Positions 16,523 to 64,000 of a stretch of 64,000 nucleotides of DNA are shown in pieces; the first letter of the stretch is position 1, and every line of letters starts with the position of its first letter. Made by a program: the position numbers and the translations under genes. Origin of the DNA: a virus. The DNA is taken from IMG/VR virus record IMGVR_UViG_3300045988_151591, positions 34,841 through 98,840 of that record; one strand, written 5' to 3'. The notes under the pieces are model-generated. The model was not told the origin of the DNA. It was given only the letters and a program-made list of their open reading frames with translations, and ran no database searches.

Positions 16523-17419
16523 ATGAAATTCATCGAACCACAAGTAGAATGGTGGCAGCAGACTACTCTTGCACAACATATAGCAAGAGTGGGCAGAATA
16601 TGCTACAAGGCAAAGGGCAAGCAGCCCGAAGAAGGAATGACCGAAGAGGAAGTGAAAACTTTCATCCAGAAGCGCGACGAGGAACGTTGCAGAGGCTTCT
16701 GGAAAAGCGGACATCGCTCGATGCTTCGCCACGGCACAGTCTATTTCTTTATGCCCAACGAAAGGGGTCTTCCTAACCACATCTGGGCATATCTGGAGGC
16801 ATCGCCTTACATCAACTATGCCACCAAGAATCATAAGGTATGGTTCAGTACCAATACTCAGTTTGCGCTTGAGCACGAGGACATGATGAATGCGCTTAGT
16901 CAGTATGGTGTCAGCGAAGACGAGTTTATCGAGAAGGCACTGAAGTACGAGTGTGAGGAGGCATTCTCTATTATCCGCATGACGATGGTAGTAACCACGC
17001 AGATAAGTACATCGCGTGAGCTCAACCGCACGTCGCCCAACAGCATCGCCGAGCAGAGCACACGCTATTGCAATTTAGAAAAAAAAGGAGGCGTACAGAT
17101 AGCACGTCCGCATTGGCACGAAGAAGGCAGTCGATGGCAGCGCTTTGTGTATGGCCTTGTATGTCGAGTGTGTGAGTGGGGCTACAACCGACTTCTGAAG
17201 TCCGGCTTGAAGCCGCAGGACGCACGAGGTGTTCTGCCTCTCGACACCTATACCGTTGTGGCATATACATACACGCTTTCCGACTGGAGCCATATTCTTG
17301 ACCTTCGCTTCCATGGCAAGACGGGCACGCCGCATCCCAATGCAAAGATGATTGGCGAGAAAATACGCAACATCATCATCGAGCGTATGCGCCAGTATTG
17401 TGATGAGTTTGACATTTAA
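16523..17419 (+). CDS. ThyX-family (flavin-dependent thymidylate synthase-like) protein, divergent
   Basis: C-terminal 'ARGVLPLDTYTVVAYTYTLSDWSHILDLR...' matches the ThyX ARxVLPL...R block. The canonical RHRxxSxxExSxRY motif is degraded to 'SRELNRTSPNSIAEQSTRY'. Confidence 0.65.
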   Translation: MKFIEPQVEWWQQTTLAQHIARVGRICYKAKGKQPEEGMTEEEVKTFIQKRDEERCRGFWKSGHRSMLRHGTVYFFMPNERGLPNHIWAYLEASPYINYATKNHKVWFSTNTQFALEHEDMMNALSQYGVSEDEFIEKALKYECEEAFSIIRMTMVVTTQISTSRELNRTSPNSIAEQSTRYCNLEKKGGVQIARPHWHEEGSRWQRFVYGLVCRVCEWGYNRLLKSGLKPQDARGVLPLDTYTVVAYTYTLSDWSHILDLRFHGKTGTPHPNAKMIGEKIRNIIIERMRQYCDEFDI

Positions 17420-20034: not shown

Positions 20035-21723
20035 ATGAAAGGTCTTTTTGAAATTATGACCAACAAGGAGTGGATGATCAACCCCGAGTTCGTACACGGA
20101 ATACGTAAGGCCTTAGAGCAGAACCTGAACACTCATGCTGCTTTCGAGAAGCCTCAGAAGACTTGCGGTTTTGTCACTGCTATAGACGAGAACGGATGCG
20201 TCTACTATCCCGAGGAATATCAGATCTCAGAGGATGGTAATCAGGTGAGAAGTCAGTGGGCTCTCAAAGATGATGATGCACAAAATTTTCCTTTTGTCTC
20301 TGTCCTTACAGTTGATGGTCCTATCACCCGCAATGGCGGCGGTTGCTCGTATGGTTCCGTCGATCATCGTAACATGATGATTAATGCAGCCAATCATCCT
20401 TTGTGTCGTGGTCATATCTTTATTATTGACACACCTGGCGGTACAGCATGGGCTAAGAATGATTATGAACAGGCCATCAATTACGCACGTTCACTTGGCC
20501 AGCCAGTTCTGTGTTTTATCGATGGCGACTGCTATTCTGCCGGTATGTATCTCGCCTCTCTCTGCGATGAGCGATATTACATGCACCCGAAGGACGGTGT
20601 AGGCTGCATCGGTGTGATGGGTGCTTTTTATACTGAGGCCGACGGCAGTACCAACAAGTTCACCAACGAGACTTATCACGAGATTTACGATCCGGAGTCT
20701 TATGACAAGAATCGCGAGTTCCGTGATATTGCCAACGACGGCAATACGAAGAAGTTCGTGGCAGAGTTGGCTGAACTGGGCGTCGAGTTCCGCAGAGATG
20801 TAAAGAAGGCTTGCCCGAAAGCTAAAAAGGAGCATCTCCATGGAAAGATATTCACAGCCGAAGAGGCAAAGGGCATTTTGGTGGATGGTCAATCTACTTT
20901 CCTTGACTGCATCCACCGCTGCTTCGATCTCTACAATGGTACAGCAAATCCTATCGAGAGAGAAATCACCACTGATGACCAAGGTACTGATACCGAAGGC
21001 ACAGAAAAAGAGCCTAAGAACGTCTCTACCCCAGCTACAGTAGCCAGTTCAGCACAAGAGCCAACGACCGCTCCATCTTCAAAAAAGGATAACAACAACA
21101 ATTTTAACCAAACTCATATTGATATGAAAAATTACCCATTGATTAGCGCTGCTTGTGGAATCAAGGAAGGCGAGATTGAAGTCAATGCAGAGGGCGCATT
21201 CATGAATATGCCATTGCTCGACTCTCTCGAAGCCAAGTTTTACACCAACGAGCAGGCTGTGGCCGATGCCAAGCAGAAAGCCACTACAGCAGAGCAAAAA
21301 CTCGCTGACCTTCAGGCTAAGTTTGATGCTCTTCAGGCAGAACACGACGCAGCTAAGACTCGTTCTGATGAAACGGCTGCAACTCTCGCCAAGAAGGACG
21401 AGGAGATAGCTGCCCTTACAACAAAGAAGAATGAGGAGATAGCTACTCTTACAACCGACAAAGCCAAGGTCGAAGAGGAACTGAAAGGCGCAAAGGAATC
21501 GCTCGCTACAGCCGAGCAGACCATTGCCGACAAGGACGCCCAGATAGCCGCCCTTACCGAAGAGGCTGGCAAGGAACCTGCGGCAGGAACTGCACCAGGT
21601 AACAACGGAGAAGGCGCACAGGTAACCGAACCTCATACAGCCTACCCCACTTGGAACCCTTCAGATCCTGTTGGCTCAAAGAAGGCTATCGAGAAGTATA
21701 AACGTGATAATGGTCTTCTCTAA
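20035..21723 (+). CDS. prohead serine protease (S49/ClpP family) fused to a coiled-coil scaffolding domain
   Basis: 'IIDTPGGTAW' and 'CYSAGMYLASLCD' are ClpP/SppA-like motifs. The C-terminal ~200 aa are coiled-coil heptad repeats ('EEIAALTTKKNEEIATLTTDKAKVEEELK'). Confidence 0.75.
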   Translation: MKGLFEIMTNKEWMINPEFVHGIRKALEQNLNTHAAFEKPQKTCGFVTAIDENGCVYYPEEYQISEDGNQVRSQWALKDDDAQNFPFVSVLTVDGPITRNGGGCSYGSVDHRNMMINAANHPLCRGHIFIIDTPGGTAWAKNDYEQAINYARSLGQPVLCFIDGDCYSAGMYLASLCDERYYMHPKDGVGCIGVMGAFYTEADGSTNKFTNETYHEIYDPESYDKNREFRDIANDGNTKKFVAELAELGVEFRRDVKKACPKAKKEHLHGKIFTAEEAKGILVDGQSTFLDCIHRCFDLYNGTANPIEREITTDDQGTDTEGTEKEPKNVSTPATVASSAQEPTTAPSSKKDNNNNFNQTHIDMKNYPLISAACGIKEGEIEVNAEGAFMNMPLLDSLEAKFYTNEQAVADAKQKATTAEQKLADLQAKFDALQAEHDAAKTRSDETAATLAKKDEEIAALTTKKNEEIATLTTDKAKVEEELKGAKESLATAEQTIADKDAQIAALTEEAGKEPAAGTAPGNNGEGAQVTEPHTAYPTWNPSDPVGSKKAIEKYKRDNGLL

Positions 21724-24113: not shown

Positions 24114-25022
24114 ATGGAACTTCGTCATTTGCGCTCATTTGTATATGTAGCCGAAACTTTATCGTTCAGTATTGCAGCCACGCGCTGTTGTGTCGCTCAG
24201 TCCGCCATCAGTCAACACATCAAGGCTCTTGAGGATGAACTGAGGTGCAAGTTGCTTATCCGCACCTCGCACAGCATTATGCTCACCGAGAGTGGCGAGG
24301 CGCTTTTGCCTCGCGCCAAGGAGATACTGAAGCAGACGGATGACTGCAAGGAGCAAATCAATGCGCTCAACAACTGCCTTGTGGGCGAGCTGAGGATAGG
24401 TGTAGGCTCTTTTATCGCACCTTACATTCGGATGGCGGCACTTATCTTCATGGAGCGATACCCGAATGTGAGAATCAACGCCGAGTTTGCCAAGGCAGCG
24501 AACTTGAACCACCTGTTGAGAAGCCACTCCATCGACCTCGCCTTCACTCTGAACTCTGCCTACAAGAATGAGGGTATCAAGTCAGAACCCTGTATTCCTT
24601 TCCGTATCTATGCGATGATGCGGGACACCCATCCCCTGGCCCGACTGGAAAAGGTGTCATACGAGGATTTGTTAAGGCACAACGTGATTATGCCCGATGT
24701 AGGCGAAAGGGTGTTCAATACCTTCCAGCAATATCTGAGATATGACTTGATGAAACTGAATGTAAAATGTATTGTGAGCGACCCCAACGAAGACCTTGCC
24801 ATCGTGGAAGAAACCCATTGTGTTACTTTCATGCCTAAACTTTATCTGAAGAGTCACCCCACCCTTACCGTCCGTCCCATCGTGGGGCTTGAGCACGACC
24901 TGATGAGCAATGCCCACTGGATGAAGGACGTGCCGATGAAGCGGTCAGCACAACTTTTTCTCGACATTGTGCGCAACGAAGCCATACCTTATATTAAAAC
25001 TCTTGAGGAAGCCATGCGATAA
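24114..25022 (+). CDS. LysR-family transcriptional regulator
   Basis: N-terminal HTH 'LRHLRSFVYVAETLSFSIAATRCCVAQSAISQHIKALEDELRCKLLIRTS'. The length and C-terminal domain fit the LysR family. Confidence 0.85.
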   Translation: MELRHLRSFVYVAETLSFSIAATRCCVAQSAISQHIKALEDELRCKLLIRTSHSIMLTESGEALLPRAKEILKQTDDCKEQINALNNCLVGELRIGVGSFIAPYIRMAALIFMERYPNVRINAEFAKAANLNHLLRSHSIDLAFTLNSAYKNEGIKSEPCIPFRIYAMMRDTHPLARLEKVSYEDLLRHNVIMPDVGERVFNTFQQYLRYDLMKLNVKCIVSDPNEDLAIVEETHCVTFMPKLYLKSHPTLTVRPIVGLEHDLMSNAHWMKDVPMKRSAQLFLDIVRNEAIPYIKTLEEAMR

Positions 25023-31104: not shown

Positions 31105-31587
31105 ATGGCATTTTCATTAAAATTGAGCAAGTCGAAAGCCTATAACCCCTCCACCAAGGAGCAGGGCTTTCGCACCACCGTTAAGTCTAACGGCAAAGCA
31201 GACATGGACTCTTTGGTAGCGTCTGCAAGTAAGAACACCACCATGCACAAGGCCGAGCTCCGCATGGCTTTTGAGCTGATGCTTGACGCTATCGCCGAAG
31301 CGCTCACATCGGGAAAGAACGTCGAGCTCAAGGGTATCGGCAACATCGGTTTCTCATGCTCCGGCGCTTGGACCAAGACCGCCGAGGAGCAGACCAAGGT
31401 GGAGCACAAGATCGGTGTAGCCTTCTATCCAAGCAATGAGGTACACGCTGCCGTAGCCACAGCCAAGACATCGTGGACCAAGGATGGCGAGGGCGACGAG
31501 CCTACCACTCCCGGCACAGGCGACTCCGGCACCACGGGTGGCGGCGACCAGAAACCTGGTGGCAACCCTCCCGAGATTGAGTCGTAA
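31105..31587 (+). CDS. HU-like DNA-binding protein (Bacteroidetes HU-HIG type)
   Basis: 'AELRMAFELMLDAIAEALTSGKNVELKGIGNIGFSCSG' is an HU-fold-like segment. Gly/Thr-rich C-terminal tail ending '...GGGDQKPGGNPPEIES'. Confidence 0.5.
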   Translation: MAFSLKLSKSKAYNPSTKEQGFRTTVKSNGKADMDSLVASASKNTTMHKAELRMAFELMLDAIAEALTSGKNVELKGIGNIGFSCSGAWTKTAEEQTKVEHKIGVAFYPSNEVHAAVATAKTSWTKDGEGDEPTTPGTGDSGTTGGGDQKPGGNPPEIES

Positions 31588-31729
31588 AGGCAGCGGGTGT
31601 ATAGCCATTCCAGTTCTTTCCAATTTTGCAAGATTTGGAAAGAACTGGAATACCTACAGACACTCTATAGACAATGTACGATTGTCATATATAAGGATTT
31701 TAATGAATCAATATAAACAAAAAACAATT

Positions 31730-32548
31730 ATGAGAAAATTATTTTCAATTCTTTTTGCGCTTATCGCAGTAGTGATGTTATCCTCGTGCTGTTTTGTGTC
31801 GCCCGATGCCGACGAGGAAACCGTGTTGGTAAAGAAACCATGGTTCTTCGGACACGGAGGTGTTGACAACGACCCAGTTCAGAGTGGTCTGACATGGTGT
31901 GCCCTGAGTACTCATTCTGAAACATTCAAGATTGTGCCTGTACGCCACGAGGTAGTTCTTGACGACATCTTCTCCGACGATAACACGCCGCTCGACTTCC
32001 ATTCTGTCATAGTCACGCAGGTGGAGCAAGGCAAGTCGCCCATACTGTTGCAGAACTATGGACGCGACTGGTTTGATACCAACCTATACAACTACTTCTG
32101 CAATCTTATCAGAGACCATATCTCGCAGTACAGTCCGTTCGATTTGATGTCCAACCGACAGGTATTGAGCACCATCGACAAGAAGATTCTGAAGCAGATG
32201 CAGGATTACGTGGCTGCCCTCTCCAAGCACAAGCCGATGCCCGTCATCATCAAGGACGTTATCATCGGTAAGGCAACCCCAAACAAGGAACAGCTTGCCG
32301 AAATGAACCGCACGGCAAAGATGGTACAGGCCAAGCAGACACAGGAGCGTGAATATGAGGTTCAGGTGGCTCGCGAGAAGGCTGAACGCCAAAAGGCTGT
32401 GGCAGACAAGGCGTATATGAACGAGATGAATCTTAACCCGCAGCAGTTTATTCAACTTAAATGGGTGGAGACCGTGGCTCTGAAGCAGGGCGCAAACATC
32501 GACGTGCTCGTTGGTCCGGCAGAGCACATGTGGAATATCAAACGATAA
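31730..32548 (+). CDS. SPFH/band-7-like lipoprotein
   Basis: Lipoprotein signal 'MRKLFSILFALIAVVMLSSC'. C-terminal 'VIIKDVIIGKATPNKEQLAEMNRTAKMVQAKQTQEREYEVQVAREKAERQKA' resembles HflK/C-stomatin. Confidence 0.55.
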   Translation: MRKLFSILFALIAVVMLSSCCFVSPDADEETVLVKKPWFFGHGGVDNDPVQSGLTWCALSTHSETFKIVPVRHEVVLDDIFSDDNTPLDFHSVIVTQVEQGKSPILLQNYGRDWFDTNLYNYFCNLIRDHISQYSPFDLMSNRQVLSTIDKKILKQMQDYVAALSKHKPMPVIIKDVIIGKATPNKEQLAEMNRTAKMVQAKQTQEREYEVQVAREKAERQKAVADKAYMNEMNLNPQQFIQLKWVETVALKQGANIDVLVGPAEHMWNIKR

Positions 32549-40535: not shown

Positions 40536-41750
40536 ATGGATAGAAAAATATTAATCACAGGCACAGGTATCGTTTCCAGTCTTGGCAACGATACCTTTTC
40601 CGTCGCACAGAAGTTGGCAAATGGAGAGTGCGGTCTGCACCACGATCCCGCACGCAGCGAGAAAGGCTATCAGTCCGACCTGTGCGGAAAGATAAAGGAC
40701 CCGAACCCTTGGAAGTTATCTGAACTCACAAGGGCTCAACGGCAATGTTTTTCCGAACCGACCCTATATTCCTTATCTGCCGTCAATGAGGCTCTGATGG
40801 AAGCCAATATTCTTCCCGAGTTCTTGCAGTCTCACAATGTGTCTGTCATCGTCAGCAATGACTCTACGGCAGGAGAAAGCTATCAGGCAATGACCACTGC
40901 CATTACACAGCGCGACACCCGACGTTTAGGGGCGGCTGCAGTGTTTCGCACACTCAATTCCACCGTCAGCATGAACCTCGCCTCTATCTACGGACTGAAA
41001 GGACTTTCGCTTACCGTCAGCGGGGCTTGTGCCGGAGGAGGTCATGCCATTACTCTCGCCAAGATGCTTCTTGATACGCGCCAAACCGAAATGGTGATTG
41101 TCGTTGGCGCACAGGAGACTGGTCCCTTCTCCATGCTGTCGTTTGATGCCATGGGCGTATTCTCGCCAGACAAGGTGCAGCCTTTCGGCAAAGGCCGCAA
41201 TGGTCTGGCTCCTTCGGGTGGTGCTGCCTGTGTCATTCTTGAGCCTTCCGACAGCTTGCGTTTTGAGGATTATGAAGTCTCGCCCGTGGCAGAACTTTCC
41301 GGCTGCGGCTTCTCCACCAACGGCACCAACATCTGTACCCCGGATGCTTATCAGGAAGAAGTGGCAATGATTAAGGCCATAGAATCGGCAGGACTCGATG
41401 CAGGAATGATAGATGTACTCCTTGCCCATGCCACAGGTACAGAGCTGGGCGATGCTGCAGAGGCAGAAGCCATCGGAAAGGTATTCCCCGAGAGCCCTTA
41501 TATCGTAGCCACCAAGGGCATGACGGGGCACGAGTGCTGGATGGCTGGTGTATCGCAGGCCGTTCAAGCATCCATGATGCTCAACACAGACACTGTCTTC
41601 GGTGCGGCTACCACAGCCGAGAATGCTTTTCCCAAACTCAATCTCGTCATGCAGTCACGCGAGTACTCAGCACACCATATCCTCTGCAATGCCTTTGGCT
41701 TCGGAGGCACCAACTCATCATTCATCATCTCTAAATATCAACCATCATGA
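40536..41750 (+). CDS. beta-ketoacyl-ACP synthase (FabF/FabB-like KS)
   Basis: 'ITGTGIVSSLGN' N-terminus. Active-site Cys in 'TVSGACAGGGHAITLA'. His motifs 'LAHATGTELGD' and 'TKGMTGHECWMAG'. C-terminal 'NAFGFGGTNSSFII'. Confidence 0.9.
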   Translation: MDRKILITGTGIVSSLGNDTFSVAQKLANGECGLHHDPARSEKGYQSDLCGKIKDPNPWKLSELTRAQRQCFSEPTLYSLSAVNEALMEANILPEFLQSHNVSVIVSNDSTAGESYQAMTTAITQRDTRRLGAAAVFRTLNSTVSMNLASIYGLKGLSLTVSGACAGGGHAITLAKMLLDTRQTEMVIVVGAQETGPFSMLSFDAMGVFSPDKVQPFGKGRNGLAPSGGAACVILEPSDSLRFEDYEVSPVAELSGCGFSTNGTNICTPDAYQEEVAMIKAIESAGLDAGMIDVLLAHATGTELGDAAEAEAIGKVFPESPYIVATKGMTGHECWMAGVSQAVQASMMLNTDTVFGAATTAENAFPKLNLVMQSREYSAHHILCNAFGFGGTNSSFIISKYQPS

Positions 41751-53297: not shown

Positions 53298-53335
53298 CCC
53301 ACGGCAGGCACACGGCTTGCCGTGGGATTTTTATT
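53298..53335. terminator. bidirectional intrinsic terminator
   Basis: 'cccacggca...tgccgtggg' 9-bp stem plus 'atttttatt'. Lies between convergent genes. Confidence 0.55.
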
Positions 53336-53624
53336 CTTCGGGCAGGAGCATCACACCGACACGAACCTTTGCACCACAATGAGGACAGAAGGCGGTGGTG
53401 TTGATAGTAGGCTGTGCATCGCTCGAATCGCCTATTGGATAGAACAAATCAGTGATGTCGCAATCCAGTTTCTCGCAAAGGTCTTCCAAACGTTTTATTG
53501 TAGGGTTGCCTTTGATGTAATTCTGAATGATGTTCTGCGTCTTTAGGTCGAACTTCTGACAGAAAGACGTAATGGTGTAACCGCGCTCTTTTATGGCGCG
53601 ACGAATGTCTATTTTCGTTCTCAT
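53331..53624 (-). CDS. XRE-family HTH regulator with C-terminal zinc ribbon (repressor candidate)
   Basis: 'YTITSFCQKFDLKTQNIIQNYIKGN' HTH. 'CPHCGAKV' zinc ribbon. Confidence 0.65.
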   Translation of the reverse strand: MRTKIDIRRAIKERGYTITSFCQKFDLKTQNIIQNYIKGNPTIKRLEDLCEKLDCDITDLFYPIGDSSDAQPTINTTAFCPHCGAKVRVGVMLLPEE

Positions 53625-53939
53625 GTTTATATTAGTATTGTTTTGGCTGCAAAGTTAATACATATATTTGTATTTTGCAAGTTTTTCTGAAAAATAATTA
53701 TTATATACGTTTATTTCTGTTCAAAAGAGTATAGTTTTATCTGTTCGCAGAGTTTTCTTTTGTATTTTTTTTGTAAAAAAAGAGAGGCATATCATCTATT
53801 TTTATTGTATCTGAATTATTATTTTACCCCTATAAATAGTTAATAATCAATGTCTTAACTAAAAATCACTCCTGTAAAAGCCATCCCAAGAGGAACACCT
53901 AAATAATTGATAATTAGAGCAATCGCATCCAGCAAACTT

Positions 53940-54250
53940 TCCTTGCAACTTCGATTCGCAAGCGAGAGCGCCGCCGCACTGGGGAGCCTTGCGTGCACCC
54001 GATTTAGCTAAAACTTATCATATATGCGGACGCACACCCCAGGCGGGCGAGGGTGCGCCATGGATGGGGAGAGGGTGCACGGCGTAGGGCGTGAGGCATA
54101 CCAGACGGGGCGAGGGTGTGCCCCTCGCTCGCCCTGAAGCGGTCGAGGGTGTGGCGGTCGTGTGTGCTGTTGCTCGTCGTGGCTGCTGTGGATGCCTGAA
54201 CGGTGGCGAGGTGGTCCGCAGAGGTGCAGCCGTGCGCCTATATAATCAAG
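53940..54250. other. GC-rich island with 4x GCGAGGGTG repeats and stem-loops
   Basis: About 300 bp of high-GC sequence inside an AT-rich intergenic. 'gggcgagggtgtgcccctcgctcgccc' forms a hairpin. Confidence 0.4.
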
Positions 54251-54325
54251 GTAAAAAGAAAAAATAATGATAAAAGCAAAAATAATTGCAAAAATATTTG
54301 GTAAAAGGTAGAAAAATTACTACCT

Positions 54326-54538
54326 TTGCAAAGTCAAACAAATAAAACATATAAAATAATGAAGTACACAGAATTTCACCGAAGAATCAAGGCCAAGGGC
54401 TGGAAGTTCGACCACGCCGAAGGCTCGCACTACTTTTACACCAAGGGCGGAAAGCTCTCGCCCCCTGTCCCCTTTCATGGGGCAAAGGAGGTGCCCGAGC
54501 CGTTACGGCGGAGCATAGCGCGAGCGATGGGAATTTAA
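54326..54538 (+). CDS. hicA: HicA-family mRNA interferase toxin
   Basis: 'KYTEFHRRIKAKGWKFDHAEGSHYFYTKGGK...VPFHGAKEV' matches the HicA/YcfA signature. The likely true start is the internal ATG 'MKYTEF' (~54359). A TAccTTTG promoter motif lies upstream. Confidence 0.75.
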   Translation: MQSQTNKTYKIMKYTEFHRRIKAKGWKFDHAEGSHYFYTKGGKLSPPVPFHGAKEVPEPLRRSIARAMGI

Positions 54539-54606
54539 CAGAAGAAAGAGGAAAGGGGCGCGCCCCTTTCCTCCATCATAATAAACGATATAATATATAT
54601 AAGGAT

Positions 54607-55014
54607 ATGGCAAACGAAATTATAATGCTTATTTCTGCAAGTGCCGACAGTTTCGGCGCATGCTCTGAGAATTGCCCCGGTATTTGGGCGGCTGGCGACA
54701 CCGTGGAAGCATGCAAGGCCGACACCGTGCAAGCTATCGAGTTAATAGAAAAGAACATGCCACGCGAGGACTGGCCCGAACCTCTGAAGGCTGGCGAATA
54801 TACAATTATATGGCGGTATGATACCGAAAGCTTTTTGTATTATTACGGTAGTTTTATATCTCTTGCAGGTATGGAGCGTATCACGGGGATAAATCAAAAA
54901 CAACTATGGGCCTATATGCACGGACGCAAGAAACCGCGACAGGCACAGAAAGAGAAAATTATAAACGCTTTACACCGTTTCGCCCGTGAGTTGGCGGCGG
55001 CCGTTATACTTTAG
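54607..55014 (+). CDS. hicB: HicB-family antitoxin
   Basis: 'FGACSENCPGIWAAGDTVEACKADTVQAIELIEK' is a HicB/UPF0150 fold motif. The C-terminal segment is DNA-binding-like. Confidence 0.7.
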   Translation: MANEIIMLISASADSFGACSENCPGIWAAGDTVEACKADTVQAIELIEKNMPREDWPEPLKAGEYTIIWRYDTESFLYYYGSFISLAGMERITGINQKQLWAYMHGRKKPRQAQKEKIINALHRFARELAAAVIL

Positions 55015-55098
55015 GTTAGTTTTATTTGTTTGACAGCTTTTGGAATTAGCCGAAGTTATCCCGACAAGGTTTGCACCCTGTCGGGATTTTTTTTGTTT

Positions 55099-55446
55099 TT
55101 ACCTCTTTGCTCCTCCCCCCTGCTCCAGACGCTCGACGATGGCGCGGAGCTGCTGCACGGTGTCGGCTGTGTAGGTCTCACCGCCGACACGCACGACACC
55201 AACCAGGGCACCACCACCACCGCCTGCGCGCTGCGCCCTGGCTTGCTTCACCTCCTCCACAACTGCAGGAGGGGCGAGAAGCTGCCACGGCTCCACATCC
55301 AAGGCGGCGGCGATGCGCTCCAAGGTTGGGAACGATGGCCGCGAGATCGTGGCGGATACACTGGGACGCGATACGCCCAGAAGGTCGGCTAAATCCTGTT
55401 GGGTCATGCCCTTTTGTGTTAGTATGTCTTTAATGTATGATTTCAT
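55099..55446 (-). CDS. XRE-family HTH transcriptional regulator
   Basis: 'MKSYIKDILTQKGMTQQDLADLLGVSRPSVSA' HTH. Pro/Gly-rich C-terminus. Confidence 0.65.
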   Translation of the reverse strand: MKSYIKDILTQKGMTQQDLADLLGVSRPSVSATISRPSFPTLERIAAALDVEPWQLLAPPAVVEEVKQARAQRAGGGGGALVGVVRVGGETYTADTVQQLRAIVERLEQGGGAKR

Positions 55447-55612
55447 CTTTTTTAATTTGGGTACAAAGATATACATATTTATATAATGTAAAGAAGTCTT
55501 TACGTTAAATAGTGTTTAAAGTAAAAAAATAGTTACTTAAATATTTGTTTGGTAAATATATATTTACTATCTTTGCACTCGAAAACAAAGTAACAACAAA
55601 AATACAAAGATT

Positions 55613-56461
55613 ATGAAAAAGTCAACAAACATTGCAGCATTGAAAGAGTTAGTTAATTACAACGTATTAGACCGCGTTAAGTTACGCGTTAATGGCGTAC
55701 AGGCTTACAACATTGCCGAGGGCGAGGAGTACACCGTAATAGTAAAATATGAAAAGCAGCGCGGCCGCTATTACTTCGTAGATCGCGACGGCCGCCGCTT
55801 CCTTGCTTCTCACTACGACCGCGCCGAGTTCATAGCTGGTGAGATGCTCGCAGTAATCGCAGAAGAGCGCAGCGCAGCACAGCGCGCAGCCGAACAGGTG
55901 AAGGCGTCCGGCTCTGTCGCCGTATGCTCTTCGCTTTGTGATCTCTTTTTCGAGGAGTGCGATATACTCGGTATCAGAGTCAAGAGCACCGCCGTAGGTG
56001 TTGACAACCTCGGCCGTATGCTTACATGCTACGACCTGGTAAAGGATGACGAACCAGCACAGCAGGAAGACAGCGACAACAACGACGCACAGAGCAACGA
56101 GAGCGACCAGACAACCGCCGAGCCTTCACGCCTCGCCAAGGCAGCCGCAAAGGTAAAAGCATACGCCCGCCGCGCGGCCTTTGATGTGAGCCTTTTAGCC
56201 GTGGTTGTTCTCTGCTTCGTCGTCTTCTTCGCCTGCATCCCTGCCTTTAACATGATGTTAAAGGCCGCAGGCATCGAGGGGACAGCCTGTACCGTCTTTA
56301 CATGGTGCGCCCTTTTCCCTGCTCTTGATATTACTTCGTGGCTTGAGTGTAACGCCTTGGCGGTCTTGGCTCGCTTGTTCCCTGATATGTTCAGAGGCCC
56401 GCGCCCTGAGTTCCTCCGCCCCTGCTCTATCTTAGCAAAGGCCGTCCGCAACTCTTTATAA
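55613..56461 (+). CDS. hypothetical protein with C-terminal membrane segments (282 aa)
   Basis: ORF. Preceded by a 28-bp sequence identical to the one upstream of 57038. Confidence 0.5.
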   Translation: MKKSTNIAALKELVNYNVLDRVKLRVNGVQAYNIAEGEEYTVIVKYEKQRGRYYFVDRDGRRFLASHYDRAEFIAGEMLAVIAEERSAAQRAAEQVKASGSVAVCSSLCDLFFEECDILGIRVKSTAVGVDNLGRMLTCYDLVKDDEPAQQEDSDNNDAQSNESDQTTAEPSRLAKAAAKVKAYARRAAFDVSLLAVVVLCFVVFFACIPAFNMMLKAAGIEGTACTVFTWCALFPALDITSWLECNALAVLARLFPDMFRGPRPEFLRPCSILAKAVRNSL

Positions 56462-57037: not shown

Positions 57038-59434
57038 ATGAAAGCAACATTAAATGAGATTATCGAGAACTTAGTTAAAGTATTAACCGACAAGGCAGAG
57101 ACCGCACAGTATTACAGCGATAACGAACAATACACCGGCCTTTGTGGCTGGTGCGGTATCATGTCGCCAGAATCTCGCCCGGCATATATAAAGACCTTCG
57201 GCAAGGATACGACCGAGCAAGCCGAGGCCAAGGCCCGCGAGATCATCGCCGAAAAGGAAGCAGCACGCCAGCGCACGAAGTACGCACAGCACGCCAAGGA
57301 AGCCGACCGCCTCGAAGGTGTGCCCGCCGTTGGTGGTTTCTTTTGGGCAGACAATAGCGGCCTAAAGTGTGACGGAGGCCGCGGCCTATTCGAGGAGCTG
57401 CACGCCCTCAACTACTACACACACGCCGACGAAAAGCCCGCCCGCCTCTGTTGTGTCGAGCAAATTATAAAAGTATCGGAGGCCGATTTTTCCCGCCCAG
57501 AACTCGCCGACGAACTCGTAACACGTCACAACCTGCAGGGCTTCTGTCGTTCTGAGGACGTGGACGAGGAACACAACAAATATAACTACAACAACGAGGA
57601 ATGGGCGACCTTTTACACCGTCGGCGCTCTTGTGGTTGCGCCTTCGGGCAAATACTATCTTATAGACTCCGAGGGCTACGACTACGCGCGTTATATCTAC
57701 GTGCCGATTGAATGGCCCGTAATGTTCGCCGATGAGGTGGCGAGCATCAAGGCAGCCGAGGAAGCACGCAAGGCAGAGGAGGCGCGACAGGCAGCCGAGG
57801 AGAAGGCGCAGCGCCTCGCCGAATATCGCACGCGCTGCGCTAAGTGGCTGCCCCTCATGCGCAACGTGGAGGAGATGGAGCAGGACGGAAAAGCAACCGC
57901 CCGAAAGATTGACAACGCCCGAAAGGCGAATATATTGGCCATGTGCTCCGCCGCCTTCCCTGGCGTGAAGTTCTCCGTATCTGTTCGCCGTGGCTGGGGT
58001 GCCGATTTCGATTTAACATGGACCGACGGCCCCACGGTCGAGGAGTTCGAGGCTAAAACCGATCTCGATTTATTTTGCCGCAGTCGCGACACCTTCAACG
58101 GCTGGGACGATTCAACCGACATTATTTTCTCCGAGTTCTGCGAGTTCGCAGATCTGACCATGGGACGCAACGGCGGCGACATCAAGGCACGCCGCGAAAT
58201 GTCAGACGAGGCACGCGCCGCCCTATTGGCTGACATCTTCGCCACCGTTCCCGCCACCGACAGCCGCGACAAATACGGCTATACTAAGCCGTACACCTAC
58301 ACCGACAAGGAGGCCGAGGCAGTAGCCGCAGCCCTTGGCGTGGACGTGTTCGATATACTCATACAGGGATACGCCGAGACCGCCGACACCATCGCCCGCC
58401 GTGCCTGGGACAAACGCAGCTACACCAATACCACAACGCCAGAGCCTACCGACCCGAAGCCGGGCAAGGCTCAAGCAAAGGCGACAGAGCACACCGAAGC
58501 CGCACCCGCTCAGGATGCAGCACAGACCGCCGAAGCACCCGCCGAAGGCTTGCAGCTCGTAGCAACAGCCGAGGGCGTGGCAGTGATAGGCGACAGCCGC
58601 ACAACATACCGCAACCGAAAAGCCATCAAGGCGCACGGCGCGACCTGGAACAAGACCGCCCAACAGTGGCAGGCAAGCGAGCCCGAGGCCGTGGCACGCC
58701 TTCGCGAGTGGTTCGGGGTATCTGTTACCCCGACCGCCCCAGAGGCCGACACAGCCAACGAGAGCGACAGAAAAAAGGCTTTTTTCGTAATCTTTGCAGC
58801 GTGCGAAATTGGTGCGCAGGAATGGAACAAAAGCGGATATTATACAGGAGGAACCACTCAAGACTGCGAACCCTTCGAAGCTGTCGCACCGGAAGCCGTG
58901 ACAGCGTGGAAAGAAGCGGGGCAGCCTCTCAACCGCAACGAGTGCGCCCGCCTCTATGGCGAAGAATTAACCAAGGAGGCCAAGGACGCGCACACAGTTG
59001 CCAGACATCGCGCGAAATATTGCGAAGACTGGCGCGACGAACTCCGCGAGATATGGGGTATATATAAAGATCTGACAGCAACAGACCACACAACCGCAAA
59101 GACTTCCGCAGATGCTACGTTATACGAGCCCGCCGAAATCACGGCAACCGCACCGACCGACACCGCCGAGGACTTCGGCAGACTGACGCAAGCGGGGGAG
59201 CAGCCGGAAGGCTGCGGCAAGGTGTGGCAGTTTGAACGATGCACGGACGCCAACGGCCACGAATTGCACGAAATTCGCCGCGTGCCTTCTGGTTTCATGG
59301 TGTTTTTCAATGTGTGCGAAGCAACGGGCGGCGGTTGCTCTACGATGGTCGTATATCCCACATATTGCGAAGCCCTGGAGGTGCTGACCCACTGCCGACC
59401 TGGTGCACAACTGATTGCCCAGCCTGCGGCATAG
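57038..59434 (+). CDS. large polyvalent-like protein (798 aa) with KxxGAxWxxxxxxW motif
   Basis: 'TYRNRKAIKAHGATWNKTAQQWQ' resembles a plasmid primase-associated C-terminal motif. Modular, acidic. Confidence 0.45.
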   Translation: MKATLNEIIENLVKVLTDKAETAQYYSDNEQYTGLCGWCGIMSPESRPAYIKTFGKDTTEQAEAKAREIIAEKEAARQRTKYAQHAKEADRLEGVPAVGGFFWADNSGLKCDGGRGLFEELHALNYYTHADEKPARLCCVEQIIKVSEADFSRPELADELVTRHNLQGFCRSEDVDEEHNKYNYNNEEWATFYTVGALVVAPSGKYYLIDSEGYDYARYIYVPIEWPVMFADEVASIKAAEEARKAEEARQAAEEKAQRLAEYRTRCAKWLPLMRNVEEMEQDGKATARKIDNARKANILAMCSAAFPGVKFSVSVRRGWGADFDLTWTDGPTVEEFEAKTDLDLFCRSRDTFNGWDDSTDIIFSEFCEFADLTMGRNGGDIKARREMSDEARAALLADIFATVPATDSRDKYGYTKPYTYTDKEAEAVAAALGVDVFDILIQGYAETADTIARRAWDKRSYTNTTTPEPTDPKPGKAQAKATEHTEAAPAQDAAQTAEAPAEGLQLVATAEGVAVIGDSRTTYRNRKAIKAHGATWNKTAQQWQASEPEAVARLREWFGVSVTPTAPEADTANESDRKKAFFVIFAACEIGAQEWNKSGYYTGGTTQDCEPFEAVAPEAVTAWKEAGQPLNRNECARLYGEELTKEAKDAHTVARHRAKYCEDWRDELREIWGIYKDLTATDHTTAKTSADATLYEPAEITATAPTDTAEDFGRLTQAGEQPEGCGKVWQFERCTDANGHELHEIRRVPSGFMVFFNVCEATGGGCSTMVVYPTYCEALEVLTHCRPGAQLIAQPAA

Positions 59435-62509: not shown

Positions 62510-64000
62510 ATGAAAACAATAGAGAACTTTGACGATTATCGTGCGCTGGTGGACGAGGTGAAGATGCACGACTATAGATATTTCGGGCTGAACCGCCCGA
62601 CCATCAGCGACGAGGAATACGACGCGATGTACTTTGCCTTGCAGGAGTACGAAGAGCAGCACGCGGACGAGATATTGCCCGACTCACCTACTCAGCAGTG
62701 CTACAGCGAGAACGGCAACGGAAAGCGCACGGTGGCACGTCGCACGGCTTGCCTGTCGATGAAGAAGTTGCACGATGCCAAGGCGGTGGTGAAATACCTG
62801 AGAGCGCAGCAGAGAGCTGCCAATATCGGCAGCAAGGGCACGGAGGTGGCTGTAGAGTGGAAGTTTGACGGCGAGACCGTGAGCTTAGTATATCGTCAGG
62901 GAGTGTTGGCAGAAGCCACATACGGACACGGCAAGGAGTTGTTTGGCAACGACTGCCTGGACCATATCAAGCATGTGCAGGGCGTACCCGACAAGGTGGA
63001 CGTATGGAGTCAGTACGACCGAGTGGAGGTGAGAGGCGAGGTGATCATTTCGCTTGAGGAGTTTGCCCGTTATTGCAAGGCTGGCAAATCACCCCGTTCT
63101 ACGAGCAACGGCATCATGGCGAAGAAGGTGGCTGTGGCTGACGAGTGCAAGCGCCTGGAGTTTCATCCTTTCCGCCTCATTATGGATGGCGTGACAAGAC
63201 ACATGCCGGCGATGCAAGCCTTAGAGCGCAACAGCTTTAAGACTTCTGGTTTCGTGTCGGCTCTCAATCTTGAGAAGACGGATACCGAGCTGGAGCAGGA
63301 CATCGAGAACATCGTGTGCGCTGCCGAGGTAAAGCGCGAGAAGCTACCCTACCCTACCGACGGACTTGTCTTTAAGTTCGACAACTACGAGTATTACGAC
63401 TGCATCGGACAGACCGACCATGACGCAAAGTATAACTGCGCGTTTAAGTTCCGTCCCGTATTCAAGGCCGTAACCACCTATCGCGGACATCATACCACGG
63501 TAGGCGAGAAGACTGGCAAGATAACATTCGTAGCCGACTTTGACGAGGTGGAAATGAACGGACACCTTTTTGCTCATGCCAACTGCGGCAGCGAGCGCAC
63601 GTTCCTTCAGAAGGATCTTACACCTGGATGCAAGATTGAGGTTAGCTTGCACGGCGATGTGATTGTTTGCGTTGATGGAAAGGTGGAGGAAGAATCTATC
63701 ATTGAGGAAGAACCTCTTGTTATAGACGAGGAGCCTCTTGTTATAGACGAGTCGGGGATGGTTCATCATCCAGAGCCTCACGTTATAGGGCAGGATATTA
63801 ATCAGAGCCAGGAGTCTGAAGCAGAGCCAGAACCTATTCTTCAGCCGGAGCCTGACCCTCAGCCGAAGCCGAAGCGCAAGCGTAACTATCCGCAGGTAGG
63901 CGAGCCGACACTGCGAGGAAATGAAGAATCGGTATCTGCACAGCAGGAGATGTCTTCTTGTGGCATAAAAAAGGCGTTGACCTATATGTTCGCGGCCTTG
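62510..64000 (+). CDS. NAD-dependent DNA ligase (LigA-like), 3' partial
   Basis: Read manually. No stop codon before the window end. KxDG adenylation motif 'VEWKFDGETVSL'. N-terminal 'YRYFGLNRPTISDEEYDAMYFAL' is LigA-like. Confidence 0.7.
   Translation, partial: MKTIENFDDYRALVDEVKMHDYRYFGLNRPTISDEEYDAMYFALQEYEEQHADEILPDSPTQQCYSENGNGKRTVARRTACLSMKKLHDAKAVVKYLRAQQRAANIGSKGTEVAVEWKFDGETVSLVYRQGVLAEATYGHGKELFGNDCLDHIKHVQGVPDKVDVWSQYDRVEVRGEVIISLEEFARYCKAGKSPRSTSNGIMAKKVAVADECKRLEFHPFRLIMDGVTRHMPAMQALERNSFKTSGFVSALNLEKTDTELEQDIENIVCAAEVKREKLPYPTDGLVFKFDNYEYYDCIGQTDHDAKYNCAFKFRPVFKAVTTYRGHHTTVGEKTGKITFVADFDEVEMNGHLFAHANCGSERTFLQKDLTPGCKIEVSLHGDVIVCVDGKVEEESIIEEEPLVIDEEPLVIDESGMVHHPEPHVIGQDINQSQESEAEPEPILQPEPDPQPKPKRKRNYPQVGEPTLRGNEESVSAQQEMSSCGIKKALTYMFAAL

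What the first reader, a model, noticed from the sequence alone, without database searches (positions are those of the whole stretch)
54326..55476. HicAB toxin-antitoxin pair bracketed by two outward-facing XRE regulators
hicA (HicA/YcfA mRNA-interferase signature) and hicB (UPF0150 motif) lie between a minus-strand XRE/Zn-ribbon regulator (53331) and another minus-strand XRE regulator (55099). A host-type TAccTTTG promoter precedes hicA.

This may serve as a plasmid-like addiction or abortive-infection/anti-defence module. It could be part of a lysogeny or pseudolysogeny switch, although no integrase is present.
Basis: partly seen in the sequence, partly recalled or inferred. Interest (0 to 1): 0.5.

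Follow-up and report, generated by a model that had tools for sequence, protein, structure and literature searches.

The report
Phage-borne HicAB toxin-antitoxin cassette
This is a real but ordinary HicA/HicB toxin-antitoxin gene pair carried as an optional cassette by a large Prevotella-type phage; its one unusual feature is that the two ends of its messenger RNA are complementary, which may keep toxin synthesis in check.

Summary
hicA (54359-54538, 59 aa) and hicB (54607-55014, 135 aa) are real. They form a canonical class-3 HicAB type II toxin-antitoxin pair: HicA above the Pfam threshold with an invariant EGSH catalytic motif and the HicA fold, and HicB with an N-terminal HicB fold plus a C-terminal XRE helix-turn-helix. 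The Bacteroidetes promoter is present, and a palindrome overlaps its -7 box.

The flanking XRE genes are real HTH regulators, but they are not part of the module. Relatives without hicAB keep them. The right-hand XRE converges on hicB rather than facing outward. The zinc ribbon is unsupported.

In a family of about 95-kb phages, hicAB is an exchangeable cassette (about 54283-55098). Of 16 relatives, 5 carry it, 3 carry a 25%-identical hicAB in the same slot, and 8 carry none. The same cassette also sits in integrated prophages and in Prevotella/Bacteroidales chromosomes.

The closest relative encodes ParA about 2.5 kb past the window end. No integrase was found, so a plasmid-prophage addiction role is plausible but unproven.

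New here: a perfect 16-nt complementarity links the predicted hicA mRNA 5' end (54333-54348) to the sequence just after the hicB stop (55019-55034). It covaries across 27 distinct cassette variants. It probably occludes the hicA translation start.

The parts
53331..53624 (-). XRE1: a 97-aa XRE-family HTH regulator with a C-terminal CPHCG knuckle. It belongs to the phage backbone, is divergent from hicA, and is not part of the cassette.
   Evidence: Pfam HTH_26 5.7e-7 and HTH_3 6.6e-6; Zn-ribbon hits are all below threshold. An XRE in the same position is present in relatives without hicAB.
53625..54282 (.). Conserved non-coding backbone region between XRE1 and the cassette. It holds four GC-rich direct repeats, GG(G/T)CGAGGGTG, at 54045-54160. 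Its function is unknown.
   Evidence: 77-78% identity to L020 and L034, which lack this hicAB. Repeats. No excess RNA structure (z -0.6 and -0.5). No Rfam match.
54297..54328 (+). hicAB promoter of Bacteroidetes type: -33 TTTG (54297-54300), a 20-nt spacer, and -7 TACCTTTG (54321-54328).
   Evidence: Pattern scan gives 6 hits against 1.5 expected. The promoter is conserved with the cassette in 10 different genomic contexts.
54304..54327 (.). Palindrome AAAGGTAG-N8-CTACCTTT overlapping the -7 box. It is the putative HicB operator for autorepression.
   Evidence: Read directly from the sequence. It is conserved in all 10 contexts. Equivalent palindromes on the -7 box occur in diverged cassettes. 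Binding is inferred by analogy with E. coli hicO (PMC10865869).
54333..54348 (+). 5' arm GTCAAACAAATAAAAC. It starts 4 nt after the -7 box (the predicted mRNA 5' end) and covers positions -26 to -11 of the hicA translation initiation region.
   Evidence: Perfect 16-nt inverted repeat with 55019-55034. These are the only two copies in the window. Covariation is shown.
54359..54538 (+). hicA: a 59-aa HicA mRNA-interferase toxin with catalytic His24 in the EGSH motif.
   Evidence: Pfam PF07927 at 41.4 bits, above the gathering threshold of 27. PDB phmmer hit to 6hpb_A. AF2 pLDDT 96 with Foldseek TM 0.85 to 6g26 HicA. Invariant residues. PHROG 353 'toxin'.
54548..54573 (.). Perfect 13+13-nt GC-rich palindrome in the hicA-hicB spacer. 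Its role is unknown; it could be an RNA stabiliser, a processing barrier, or a terminator for antisense transcripts.
   Evidence: The hairpin is present with compensatory differences in L004, in the unrelated allele of L020 and in several other lineages, but it is not universal. It is terminator-like on the minus strand.
54607..55014 (+). hicB: a 135-aa antitoxin with an N-terminal HicB (partial RNase H-like) domain and a C-terminal XRE-type HTH.
   Evidence: AF2 pLDDT 92 with topology b-b-b-a-b followed by a helical HTH. Foldseek top hits are E. coli HicB 6u0i/6hpb_B, TTHA1013 and B. pseudomallei HicB; the C-terminal domain matches HipB, P2 C and C.Kpn2I. Best profile hit is Y. pestis HicB3. 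Homologues are named HicB by NCBI and JGI. hicA lies directly upstream in 88 of 101 loci.
55019..55034 (+). 3' arm GTTTTATTTGTTTGAC ('anti-leader'). It begins 5 nt after the hicB stop codon and is complementary to the hicA leader.
   Evidence: The MFE and centroid folds of the whole predicted mRNA are both closed by this helix.
55058..55098 (+). Intrinsic terminator of hicAB (hairpin 55058-55087 followed by a T-run). It marks the right border of the cassette and abuts the XRE2 stop codon.
   Evidence: Inverted repeat I5. Hairpin plus U-run in the mRNA fold. It is conserved with the cassette in an integrated prophage, L012.
55099..55446 (-). XRE2: a 115-aa XRE-family HTH regulator that belongs to the phage backbone. 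It is convergent with hicB and divergent from the early operon starting at 55613. It is a probable repressor.
   Evidence: Pfam HTH_3 3.2e-10. PHROGs transcriptional repressor/regulator families. Present at 66-94% identity in 17 of 19 relatives with or without hicAB.
55544..55575 (+). Bacteroidetes-type promoter of the rightward operon (282-aa gene at 55613, then the LPD29 protein at 57038-59434). It lies back to back with the XRE2 promoter.
   Evidence: Pattern scan. LPD29 Pfam 29 bits.

Best explanation
The locus is a self-contained class-3 hicAB type II toxin-antitoxin cassette of about 815 bp (about 54283-55098). It carries its own Bacteroidetes promoter, a palindromic operator on the -7 box, hicA, hicB and its own terminator.

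The cassette sits in a variable slot of a family of about 95-kb, ParA-encoding, Prevotella-type tailed phages. HicA is a ribosome-independent mRNA-cleaving toxin. HicB neutralises it with its N-terminal domain and represses the operon through its C-terminal HTH; both steps are inferred from the family.

The two XRE genes are backbone regulators of the phage and not components of the module.

The predicted 5' end of the cassette's mRNA (positions -26 to -11 of hicA) base-pairs with the 16 nt that follow the hicB stop codon. This most likely hides the SD-less, structure-sensitive hicA initiation region in the finished transcript. The toxin would then be made only co-transcriptionally, or while ribosomes terminating at the hicB stop melt the helix. 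That would keep HicB in excess despite the toxin-first gene order. This mechanism is inferred and not shown.

For the phage, the most likely benefit is post-segregational stabilisation of a plasmid-like (ParA-partitioned, integrase-less) prophage. Abortive infection or superinfection exclusion is the near-equal alternative.
For: Identity:
- HicA by Pfam, PDB sequence match and fold, with the catalytic motif invariant.
- HicB by fold and architecture.
- Class 3 (HicB with a C-terminal HTH) as defined in PMC10865869.

Cassette nature:
- The conserved block runs from the promoter to the terminator and is shared by 10 contexts, with divergence outside it.
- Presence and absence among relatives were established.
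- A 25%/24%-identical second hicAB (Pfam HicA 38 bits) occupies the same slot in L020-L022.
- The same cassette lies next to an integrase at a prophage end (L012) and in SusC/D-bearing chromosomes (L007-L010).
- At least 361 viral contigs and at least 503 species genomes encode this HicB subfamily, with Prevotella closest.

ParA and plasmid-like module:
- ParA is found in more than 100 related viral contigs, including the closest relative.
- No integrase was found in the window.

5'-3' helix:
- It is a perfect 16-nt repeat, and the two arms are its only copies in the window.
- It closes both the MFE and the centroid fold.
- In the phage set, 11 of 33 non-redundant loci have a perfect complement of at least 12 nt; the 99th percentile of cross-locus controls is 11.
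- In the genome set, 11 of 46 do so against 1.7% of controls, Mann-Whitney p = 0.006.
- There are 27 distinct helix sequences. They share the same register: the 5' arm starts 0-5 nt after the -7 box, and the 3' arm starts between -3 and +4 of the hicB stop in most.
- All 9 outer pairs covary, with 0 of 500 shuffles reaching the observed values, and slid controls are much lower.
- The unrelated allele in L020-L022 has an 18-bp helix that covers the hicA' AUG itself.

Literature:
- Bacteroidetes initiation depends on an unstructured region from -20 to +20 with A at -3, -6, -12 and -13, all of which are present here (PMC6847099).
- The modal 5' UTR in Bacteroides is 23 nt, against 26 nt predicted here (PMC7366714).
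Against: - No experiment: toxicity, neutralisation, operator binding, the transcription start site and the RNA helix are all inferred.
- The HicB Pfam match is below threshold.
- Only about 35-45% of non-redundant cassettes of the subfamily show the helix.
- Internal mismatches (G-U 6, C-A 4, other 4) do not discriminate RNA pairing from a DNA-level repeat.
- The 5' arm is a generic Bacteroidales leader (26 of 33 metagenome hits belong to unrelated genes), so part of the apparent conservation is leader conservation.
- ParA lies outside the window and is seen only in relatives.
- The integrase search is incomplete for the unseen third of the genome.
- The cassette also lives in chromosomes and integrated prophages, where plasmid addiction is irrelevant.
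- PADLOC has no HicAB model hit.
Confidence: 0.65

Rival explanations
1. The cassette's main role is anti-phage defence. HicA would be released when a superinfecting phage shuts off host or prophage expression and would abort the infection. The prophage carries the cassette as a defence moron rather than as an addiction module.
For: - The cassette sits in a hot-swappable slot with alternative alleles.
- In integrated prophages it sits at the moron position next to the integrase or the prophage end.
- It is common in chromosomes.
- HicA falls in the PHROG 'moron' category.
- The literature proposes anti-phage roles for HicA contexts (PMC10865869).
Against: - There is no hit to any PADLOC defence model.
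- No sensor or trigger is recognisable.
- The host phage family has ParA and no integrase was found, which fits addiction at least equally well.
- The two roles are not mutually exclusive.
Confidence: 0.35
2. One reading: XRE1, hicA, hicB and XRE2 form one regulatory unit. The XRE proteins would control hicAB, or hicAB would be wired into the lysis-lysogeny switch.
For: The genes are physically adjacent. Both intergenic regions carry Bacteroidetes-type promoters. XRE2 is convergent with hicB, so antisense read-through is conceivable.
Against: - XRE2 is present in 17 of 19 relatives irrespective of hicAB, and an XRE occupies the XRE1 position without hicAB.
- The cassette, with identical promoter, operator and terminator, occurs with no XRE neighbour in L012 and L007-L010.
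- HicB has its own HTH and its own palindrome on the promoter.
- A terminator separates hicB from XRE2.
Confidence: 0.08
3. The 16-nt inverted repeat acts at the DNA level. It would be either an inverton that flips the hicAB coding block away from its promoter (phase variation) or the recombination site of a mobile cassette.
For: - The arms lie just inside the promoter and just before the terminator, as in a gene-flipping inverton.
- One metagenome contig (L300) has the promoter and both arms, but only 8 nt between them where the hicAB coding region lies elsewhere.
- Mismatch types do not favour G-U over C-A.
- Invertons are common in Bacteroidales (own knowledge).
Against: - Of 58 assembled loci with a flanking repeat of at least 12 nt, 55 are in the promoter-on orientation and 0 are inverted.
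- The arm sequences differ widely among cassettes (27 variants). That is unexpected for a site recognised by a recombinase and expected for RNA pairing.
- The conserved, mobile unit extends beyond both arms to the promoter and the terminator, so the arms are not terminal repeats.
- The 3' arm hugs the hicB stop codon, and in the second allele the 5' arm covers the AUG. These positions make sense for translation control.
Confidence: 0.15
4. The pair is a decaying, non-functional remnant.
For: A chromosomal relative (L007) appears to have an N-terminally shortened hicA, which shows that decay does occur in this family.
Against: - Both ORFs are intact and full length.
- The catalytic motif is invariant.
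- The promoter, operator, helix and terminator are all intact and identical to those of many independent copies.
- Close homologues form large clusters.
Confidence: 0.03

Closest known systems
E. coli K-12 HicAB (class 3 hicAB, PDB 6hpb; Gerdes 2024 classification, PMC10865869)
   Same: Toxin-first bicistronic order. A roughly 59-aa HicA with the dsRBD-like fold and a catalytic His. HicB with an N-terminal partial RNase H-like domain plus a C-terminal XRE-type HTH. A palindromic operator at the promoter. A need for a device that favours HicB over HicA synthesis.
   Different: Sequence identity is low (phmmer E 7e-4 for HicA; HicB is detectable only by profile or fold). E. coli solves the ratio problem with a second promoter whose transcript does not translate hicA. 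It has no hicA-leader/3'-UTR complementarity. The present cassette has one Bacteroidetes-type promoter and a covarying 5'-3' helix.
HicA-like/HicB-like pairs annotated in Porphyromonas gingivalis phages (BK068104-BK068112)
   Same: Bacteroidota phage-borne hicAB. HicB is 32% identical over more than 80% of its length. The pairs sit at accessory positions, between structural genes or next to the integrase.
   Different: Those phages are about 45-kb integrative prophages. No flanking 5'-3' repeat of the same kind was seen in L001.
Addiction modules of plasmid prophages (P1 phd-doc). The hicA homologue in the linear plasmid-prophage PY54 is a related case.
   Same: A type II TA carried by a phage that is maintained extrachromosomally with a partition system. 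PY54 encodes a HicA 41% identical to this one.
   Different: Plasmid maintenance of the present phage is only inferred, from ParA and a weak Rep_3 match in relatives. The cassette is optional within the family. The P1 and PY54 lifestyles are from my own knowledge and were not tested here.
hok/sok mRNA fold-back (tac/fbi) and 5'-3' UTR pairing of S. aureus icaR mRNA
   Same: A long-range helix between the 5' end or translation initiation region and the 3' end of the same mRNA, which keeps a coding region translationally silent.
   Different: hok is a type I system, where the helix is relieved by 3' processing. Here the system is type II and bicistronic, and the 3' arm abuts the antitoxin stop codon, which suggests relief by terminating ribosomes. 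The comparison rests on my own knowledge; no paper describing such pairing in hicAB was found.

Membership tests
HicA toxin (PF07927) | Sequence match above the curated threshold | tested here: met
   41.4 bits against a gathering threshold of 27, covering residues 5-59 of 59.
HicA toxin (PF07927) | dsRBD-like alpha-beta-beta-beta-alpha fold | tested here: met
   AF2 pLDDT 96. Foldseek TM 0.85, rmsd 1.5-1.6 A to B. pseudomallei HicA. Also matches 1whz, 6hpb_A, 5yrz_B and 4p78_C.
HicA toxin (PF07927) | Catalytic histidine in the G-S-H loop | tested here: met
   His24 in EGSH is invariant in 26 homologues. It aligns with the His of TTHA1913 and lies one residue from E. coli His23.
HicA toxin (PF07927) | RNase activity and growth arrest on expression | not testable with these tools
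   Needs expression and cleavage assays.
HicB antitoxin, class 3 | N-terminal partial RNase H-like (UPF0150/HicB) domain | tested here: met
   The Pfam UPF0150 match is only 20.4 bits, below the gathering threshold of 27.3. However, AF2 (pLDDT 92) gives b-b-b-a-b, and the top Foldseek hits are HicB 6u0i/6hpb_B, TTHA1013 and 6g26. The top profile hit is HicB3 4p78 at E 0.07. The feature is met at fold level and not at Pfam sequence level.
HicB antitoxin, class 3 | C-terminal HTH DNA-binding domain | tested here: met
   Helices 86-131 match HipB, P2 C, C.Kpn2I and P22 c2 with TM 0.5-0.66 to the target. Relatives carry PF01381. The motif TGINQKQL is invariant.
HicB antitoxin, class 3 | Encoded immediately downstream of hicA in one operon | tested here: met
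   A 68-nt spacer, one promoter and one terminator. hicA lies upstream in 88 of 101 family loci.
HicB antitoxin, class 3 | Palindromic operator in the promoter, bound by HicB | tested here: inconclusive
   The palindrome AAAGGTAG-N8-CTACCTTT overlaps the -7 box and is conserved. Binding was not testable.
HicB antitoxin, class 3 | Neutralises the cognate HicA | not testable with these tools
   Needs co-expression or complex analysis.
XRE-family regulators (both flanking genes) | Cro/C1-type HTH above the Pfam threshold | tested here: met
   XRE1: HTH_26 at 30.1 bits (gathering threshold 22). XRE2: HTH_3 at 40.3 bits (gathering threshold 23).
Zinc-ribbon domain (claimed for XRE1) | Two CxxC knuckles, or a match above threshold | tested here: not met
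   There is a single CPHC at residues 80-83. The best Zn-ribbon hit is 16.2 bits against a gathering threshold of 25.
Phage-plasmid (extrachromosomal prophage) | Partition ATPase and a plasmid-type replication initiator on the phage genome | tested here: inconclusive
   Neither is inside the window. In the closest relative, ParA (AAA_31, 120 bits), a 98-aa gene and a 519-aa gene with a sub-threshold Rep3_N match (17 bits against a gathering threshold of 22) lie about 2.5 kb past the window end.
Phage-plasmid (extrachromosomal prophage) | No integrase and no chromosomal junctions | tested here: inconclusive
   No integrase was found among the window ORFs scanned or by tblastn with a Bacteroidales phage integrase. 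About one third of the roughly 95-kb genome is unseen. No relative of the LPD29 marker was found in 185,579 species genomes.

The most novel reading that the evidence does not exclude
The covarying helix between the hicA leader and the sequence abutting the hicB stop codon is a translational interlock. In the finished mRNA the toxin's initiation region is sequestered. Only ribosomes terminating on the antitoxin cistron, or co-transcriptional pioneer rounds, open it. An mRNA that is not making HicB therefore cannot make HicA. This would be a previously undescribed, RNA-based solution to the toxin-first gene-order problem in type II TA systems. It would be widespread in Bacteroidales phages and chromosomes, and conceptually parallel to hok fold-back inhibition.
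Probability: 0.3. Interest if true: 0.7.

Novelty: new variant of a known kind. Interest (0 to 1): 0.45.

Why it matters
As a HicAB pair in a phage, this is routine, and it should be annotated as a class-3 hicAB moron. Three points add value.

1. It shows that the flanking XRE regulators are backbone genes. They should not be read as part of a tripartite module.

2. It places an optional TA slot, with two unrelated hicAB alleles, in a large family of about 95-kb ParA-encoding gut phages of Prevotella type. That is useful for thinking about plasmid-like persistence of gut phages.

3. It uncovers a covarying 5'-3' mRNA helix in many Bacteroidales hicAB cassettes. The helix offers a directly testable mechanism for how toxin-first TA operons keep the antitoxin in excess in a phylum that lacks Shine-Dalgarno-based initiation.

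Tried and rejected
- Megablast of 52-58 kb against 50,697 phage records gave no match. There are no tRNAs in the window.
- Rfam found nothing at gathering thresholds over the whole window. At permissive thresholds it gave only two chance-level hits around the locus.
- PADLOC gave no hit for HicA or HicB. NCBIfam gave no hit for either. PHROGs gave no hit for HicB.
- The LPD29 phage marker has no relative in the species-genome collection, so host assignment relies on cassette relatives, with Prevotella closest.
- The G-U versus C-A mismatch test for RNA- versus DNA-level pairing was inconclusive (6 against 4).
- Two viral-contig scans were wasted. An arm-plus-inner-flank pattern is its own reverse complement across the repeat and cannot tell orientation. 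They were replaced by an outer-flank-plus-arm scan and an explicit ON/OFF count.
- The GC-rich repeat region 53950-54250 does not fold better than shuffles on either strand. A structured ncRNA is therefore not supported.
- E. coli K-12 hicAB was checked for the same helix and has none.
- The sigma-70 promoter scan is irrelevant for Bacteroidetes. Its terminator scan missed the hicAB terminator because of an internal mismatch in the stem.
- The idea that the arms are terminal repeats of the mobile unit was rejected, because conservation extends beyond both arms.
Full report
**What is in the sequence**

The window is a tailed-phage genome segment. It holds a tape-measure protein (8966-13816) and a head maturation protease (20035-21723). 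It also holds a holin, a primase-like gene, ThyX, DNA methylases and a truncated NAD-dependent ligase at the right end.

In the region of the finding, the genes run in this order:
- XRE1, 53331-53624, minus strand
- a 735-bp intergenic region
- hicA, 54359-54538, plus strand
- hicB, 54607-55014, plus strand
- a hairpin with a T-run
- XRE2, 55099-55446, minus strand
- a divergent promoter region
- a rightward operon starting at 55613

**Checking the observation**

HicA passes every sequence and fold test.
- Pfam HicA_toxin scores 41.4 bits against a threshold of 27.
- It aligns over its full length with E. coli HicA.
- The AlphaFold model has pLDDT 96 and superposes on five solved HicA toxins at TM 0.7-0.85.
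- The E-G-S-H24 motif is invariant among 26 homologues.

The conserved start is ATG 54359, and family members are 59-60 aa.

HicB misses the Pfam UPF0150 threshold (20.4 against 27.3 bits). A confident model (pLDDT 92) nevertheless shows the HicB-type beta-beta-beta-alpha-beta domain followed by an XRE-type helix-turn-helix. The best structural and profile matches are E. coli HicB, TTHA1013, and B. pseudomallei and Y. pestis HicB. The C-terminal half matches HipB, P2 C and C.Kpn2I. In Gerdes' 2024 scheme this is a class-3 hicAB, the class of the E. coli K-12 system.

Both flanking ORFs are XRE-type HTH proteins. The zinc ribbon claimed for the left one is a single CxxC knuckle with sub-threshold hits only.

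The geometry 'two outward-facing regulators' is half wrong. Both genes are on the minus strand, so XRE1 diverges from hicA but XRE2 converges on hicB.

The promoter claim holds. TTTG-N20-TACCTTTG lies at 54297-54328, and the full Bacteroidetes pattern is four-fold enriched in the window.

**What the surroundings say**

Twenty related viral contigs (56-106 kb) were recovered with the LPD29 protein encoded just downstream. Two more came from HicB look-ups.

Mapping the local genes onto them gave these results.
- XRE2 is present in 17 of 19 loci that cover the position.
- An XRE occupies the XRE1 position in most.
- hicAB comes and goes. Among 16 loci retrieved without reference to hicAB, 5 carry this cassette and 8 carry none.
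- The other 3 carry a different pair in the very same slot. It is 25%/24% identical, and its toxin is again a Pfam HicA at 38 bits.

The same cassette (87% HicB identity) lies between a lysozyme gene and an integrase at the end of an integrated prophage (L012). A 74% relative lies among SusC/SusD and peptidase genes in a bacterial chromosome. A 56% relative sits at another prophage end.

The subfamily is encoded in at least 361 IMG/VR contigs and at least 503 species genomes. Almost all are Bacteroidales, and Prevotella is closest at 93% and 74%. P. gingivalis phages carry annotated HicA/HicB-like pairs at 32% identity.

Ten copies in different contexts were aligned. The conserved unit runs from about 54283 (just upstream of the -33 box) to the end of the terminator T-run (about 55098), and the flanks are unrelated. 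The unit is therefore an autonomous, horizontally exchanged cassette. The XRE genes belong to the phage backbone.

**Lifestyle of the carrier**

No integrase was found in the window.

A ParA-type ATPase is encoded in more than 100 related viral contigs. The closest relative of the window is 87-99% identical in nucleotide sequence over 48.9-64 kb. In that relative, ParA (AAA_31, 120 bits) lies about 2.5 kb beyond the point where the window ends. A 98-aa gene and a 519-aa gene follow it, and the latter has a sub-threshold Rep_3 WH1 match.

One 95.4-kb relative has hicAB at one contig end and XRE2/LPD29 at the other. This indicates a circular or permuted genome of that size.

A plasmid-like prophage is thus plausible for the family but is not shown for this window.

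**An unexpected feature of the cassette**

A perfect 16-nt inverted repeat joins 54333-54348 and 55019-55034. These two arms are its only copies in the window.
- The left arm begins 4 nt after the -7 box, at the predicted transcription start. It spans -26 to -11 of the hicA initiation region, including the A-12/A-13 positions that matter in Bacteroidetes.
- The right arm begins 5 nt after the hicB stop codon and precedes the terminator.
- Both the minimum-energy and the centroid folds of the predicted 766-nt mRNA are closed by this helix.

The helix is not an accident of this copy.
- Among 33 non-redundant phage cassettes, 11 have a perfect complement of at least 12 nt in the same register. 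The 99th percentile of cross-locus controls is 11.
- Among 46 non-redundant genomic cassettes, 11 do so against 1.7% of controls (Mann-Whitney p = 0.006).
- In all, 27 different helix sequences were found. Examples are GTCAAATAACAAA, TGTCAAATTAAAACA, GTGTTAAAATAAAATAATC, TGTTCTGATAAAACC and GGTTTTTAATCT. The 5' arm always starts 0-5 nt after the -7 box, and the 3' arm usually overlaps or abuts the hicB stop.
- A MAFFT alignment was made independently of the structure and included five cassettes without the helix. On it, all nine outer pairs show double-sided changes. 74% of cells pair, against 60 +/- 2.4% in shuffles (0 of 500 reach the observed value), and at most 56% pair when the partner is slid.
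- The unrelated hicAB allele of L020-L022 has its own 18-bp helix. This one covers the hicA' AUG and first five codons, and pairs with a site 10-11 nt after the hicB' stop.
- E. coli K-12 hicAB has nothing comparable.

**RNA or DNA?**

Mismatch types do not decide the question (G-U 6, C-A 4).

Several observations argue against an inverton or a recombination site.
- None of 58 assembled loci with such a repeat is in the flipped configuration, and 55 are promoter-on.
- The arm sequences are too diverse for a recombinase site.
- The mobile unit extends beyond both arms.
- The arm positions track translation signals: the leader or the AUG on one side and the antitoxin stop codon on the other.

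One contig (L300) keeps the promoter, both arms and the terminator but has only 8 nt where the hicAB coding region lies in its relatives. It also lacks most of XRE2. This shows that DNA-level events at the arms can occur, and it remains unexplained.

The 5' arm itself is a common Bacteroidales leader, found upstream of many unrelated genes. The special element is therefore the 3' 'anti-leader'.

**Most likely mechanism**

Shown: a canonical HicA/HicB pair with its own promoter, a palindrome on the -7 box, a terminator and a covarying end-to-end complementarity. The cassette is optional and occupies a swappable slot in a ParA-phage family.

Inferred from the family: HicA cleaves mRNAs independently of ribosomes. 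HicB blocks it and represses the promoter through the palindrome.

Inferred here: the closing helix hides the structure-sensitive, SD-less hicA initiation region once transcription has passed the hicB stop. hicB keeps its own open, A/U-rich initiation region. Ribosomes terminating at the hicB stop would transiently melt the 3' arm, so HicA is made only from messages that are making HicB. This plays the role that a second promoter plays in E. coli.

For the phage, stabilising a plasmid-like prophage is slightly favoured over abortive infection. Sequence alone cannot separate the two.

**Comparison and novelty**

As a HicAB pair in a Bacteroidota phage, the locus is a new member of a known kind.

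The 5'-3' helix has, as far as the searchable literature shows, not been described for hicAB or other type II systems. It makes this clade a new variant. It resembles hok fold-back inhibition and icaR 5'-3' UTR pairing in principle, a comparison drawn from my own knowledge.

Interest is moderate. The module itself is ordinary, and the RNA feature is well supported statistically but untested functionally.

Noticed in passing
L300:2380-2560 (minus strand); corresponds to window 54283-55098: A 2.7-kb metagenome contig of the same phage backbone keeps the hicAB promoter, both 16-nt arms and the terminator. Only 8 nt (ttatgtta) lie between the arms, so the hicAB coding block is precisely absent. 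Most of XRE2 is also missing, and the 282-aa gene homologue follows directly. This is either a deletion variant or an 'empty' cassette site.
   Followed up: partly
window 54045-54160 (within 53625-54282): Four GC-rich direct repeats, GG(G/T)CGAGGGTG, at spacings of 20, 43 and 33 nt in an otherwise AT-rich intergenic region. The region is 77-78% conserved in relatives that lack this hicAB. There is no excess RNA structure and no Rfam match. It could be an iteron-, operator- or centromere-like array.
   Followed up: partly
metagenome loci L282-L314; window 54321-54348: The string TAnnTTTG-CAnn-GTCAAACAAATAAAAC is a recurrent promoter-plus-leader of many unrelated Bacteroidales genes. 26 of 33 exact hits are not hicAB, and one contig has four copies. 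The hicB 3' 'anti-leader' could in principle also pair in trans with such leaders.
   Followed up: no
window 54548-54573: A perfect 13+13-nt GC-rich palindrome in the hicA-hicB spacer. A hairpin is present, with compensatory differences, in L004, in the unrelated hicAB allele (L020 5758-5789) and in several distant lineages, but it is not universal. It scores as terminator-like on the minus strand.
   Followed up: partly
L020:5571-6221, L021:5973-6626, L022:5980-6633: Three related phages carry a second hicAB allele in the same slot upstream of XRE2. It is only 25%/24% identical, and its toxin matches Pfam HicA at 38 bits. It has the same terminator hairpin as the window.
   Followed up: yes
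L102:3001-6198 (about 2.5-5.7 kb beyond the window's right end in the closest relative): A ParA-type ATPase (AAA_31, 120 bits), a 98-aa gene and a 519-aa gene with a sub-threshold Rep_3 WH1 match. Together they look like a plasmid-like partition and replication module in this phage family.
   Followed up: partly
window 40536-41750, 24114-25022, 31484-32548, 16523-17419: The phage carries a beta-ketoacyl synthase (both KAS domains), a full-length LysR-type regulator, an SPFH/Band 7 protein and ThyX. The KAS and LysR genes are unusual cargo inside what looks like the structural region.
   Followed up: no
window 62537-64000: An ORF with an NAD-dependent DNA ligase-like KxDG motif (by eye; not scanned against Pfam) runs off the right end of the window. 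Its acidic, proline-rich C-terminal linker is the least conserved part against the closest relative (75% identity).
   Followed up: no
L007:9800-9940 and 10406-10537: In a chromosomal copy, hicA appears N-terminally shortened (a 46-aa ORF from GTG). The 3' end of the upstream peptidase M6 gene (a T9SS-type C-terminal segment) is duplicated just downstream of hicB, which hints at insertion or recombination at that site.
   Followed up: no
window 55099-55446: XRE2 matches the PADLOC CapH model (the CBASS-associated HTH regulator) over nearly its full length (7e-7), but no CapP-like protease is adjacent.
   Followed up: no
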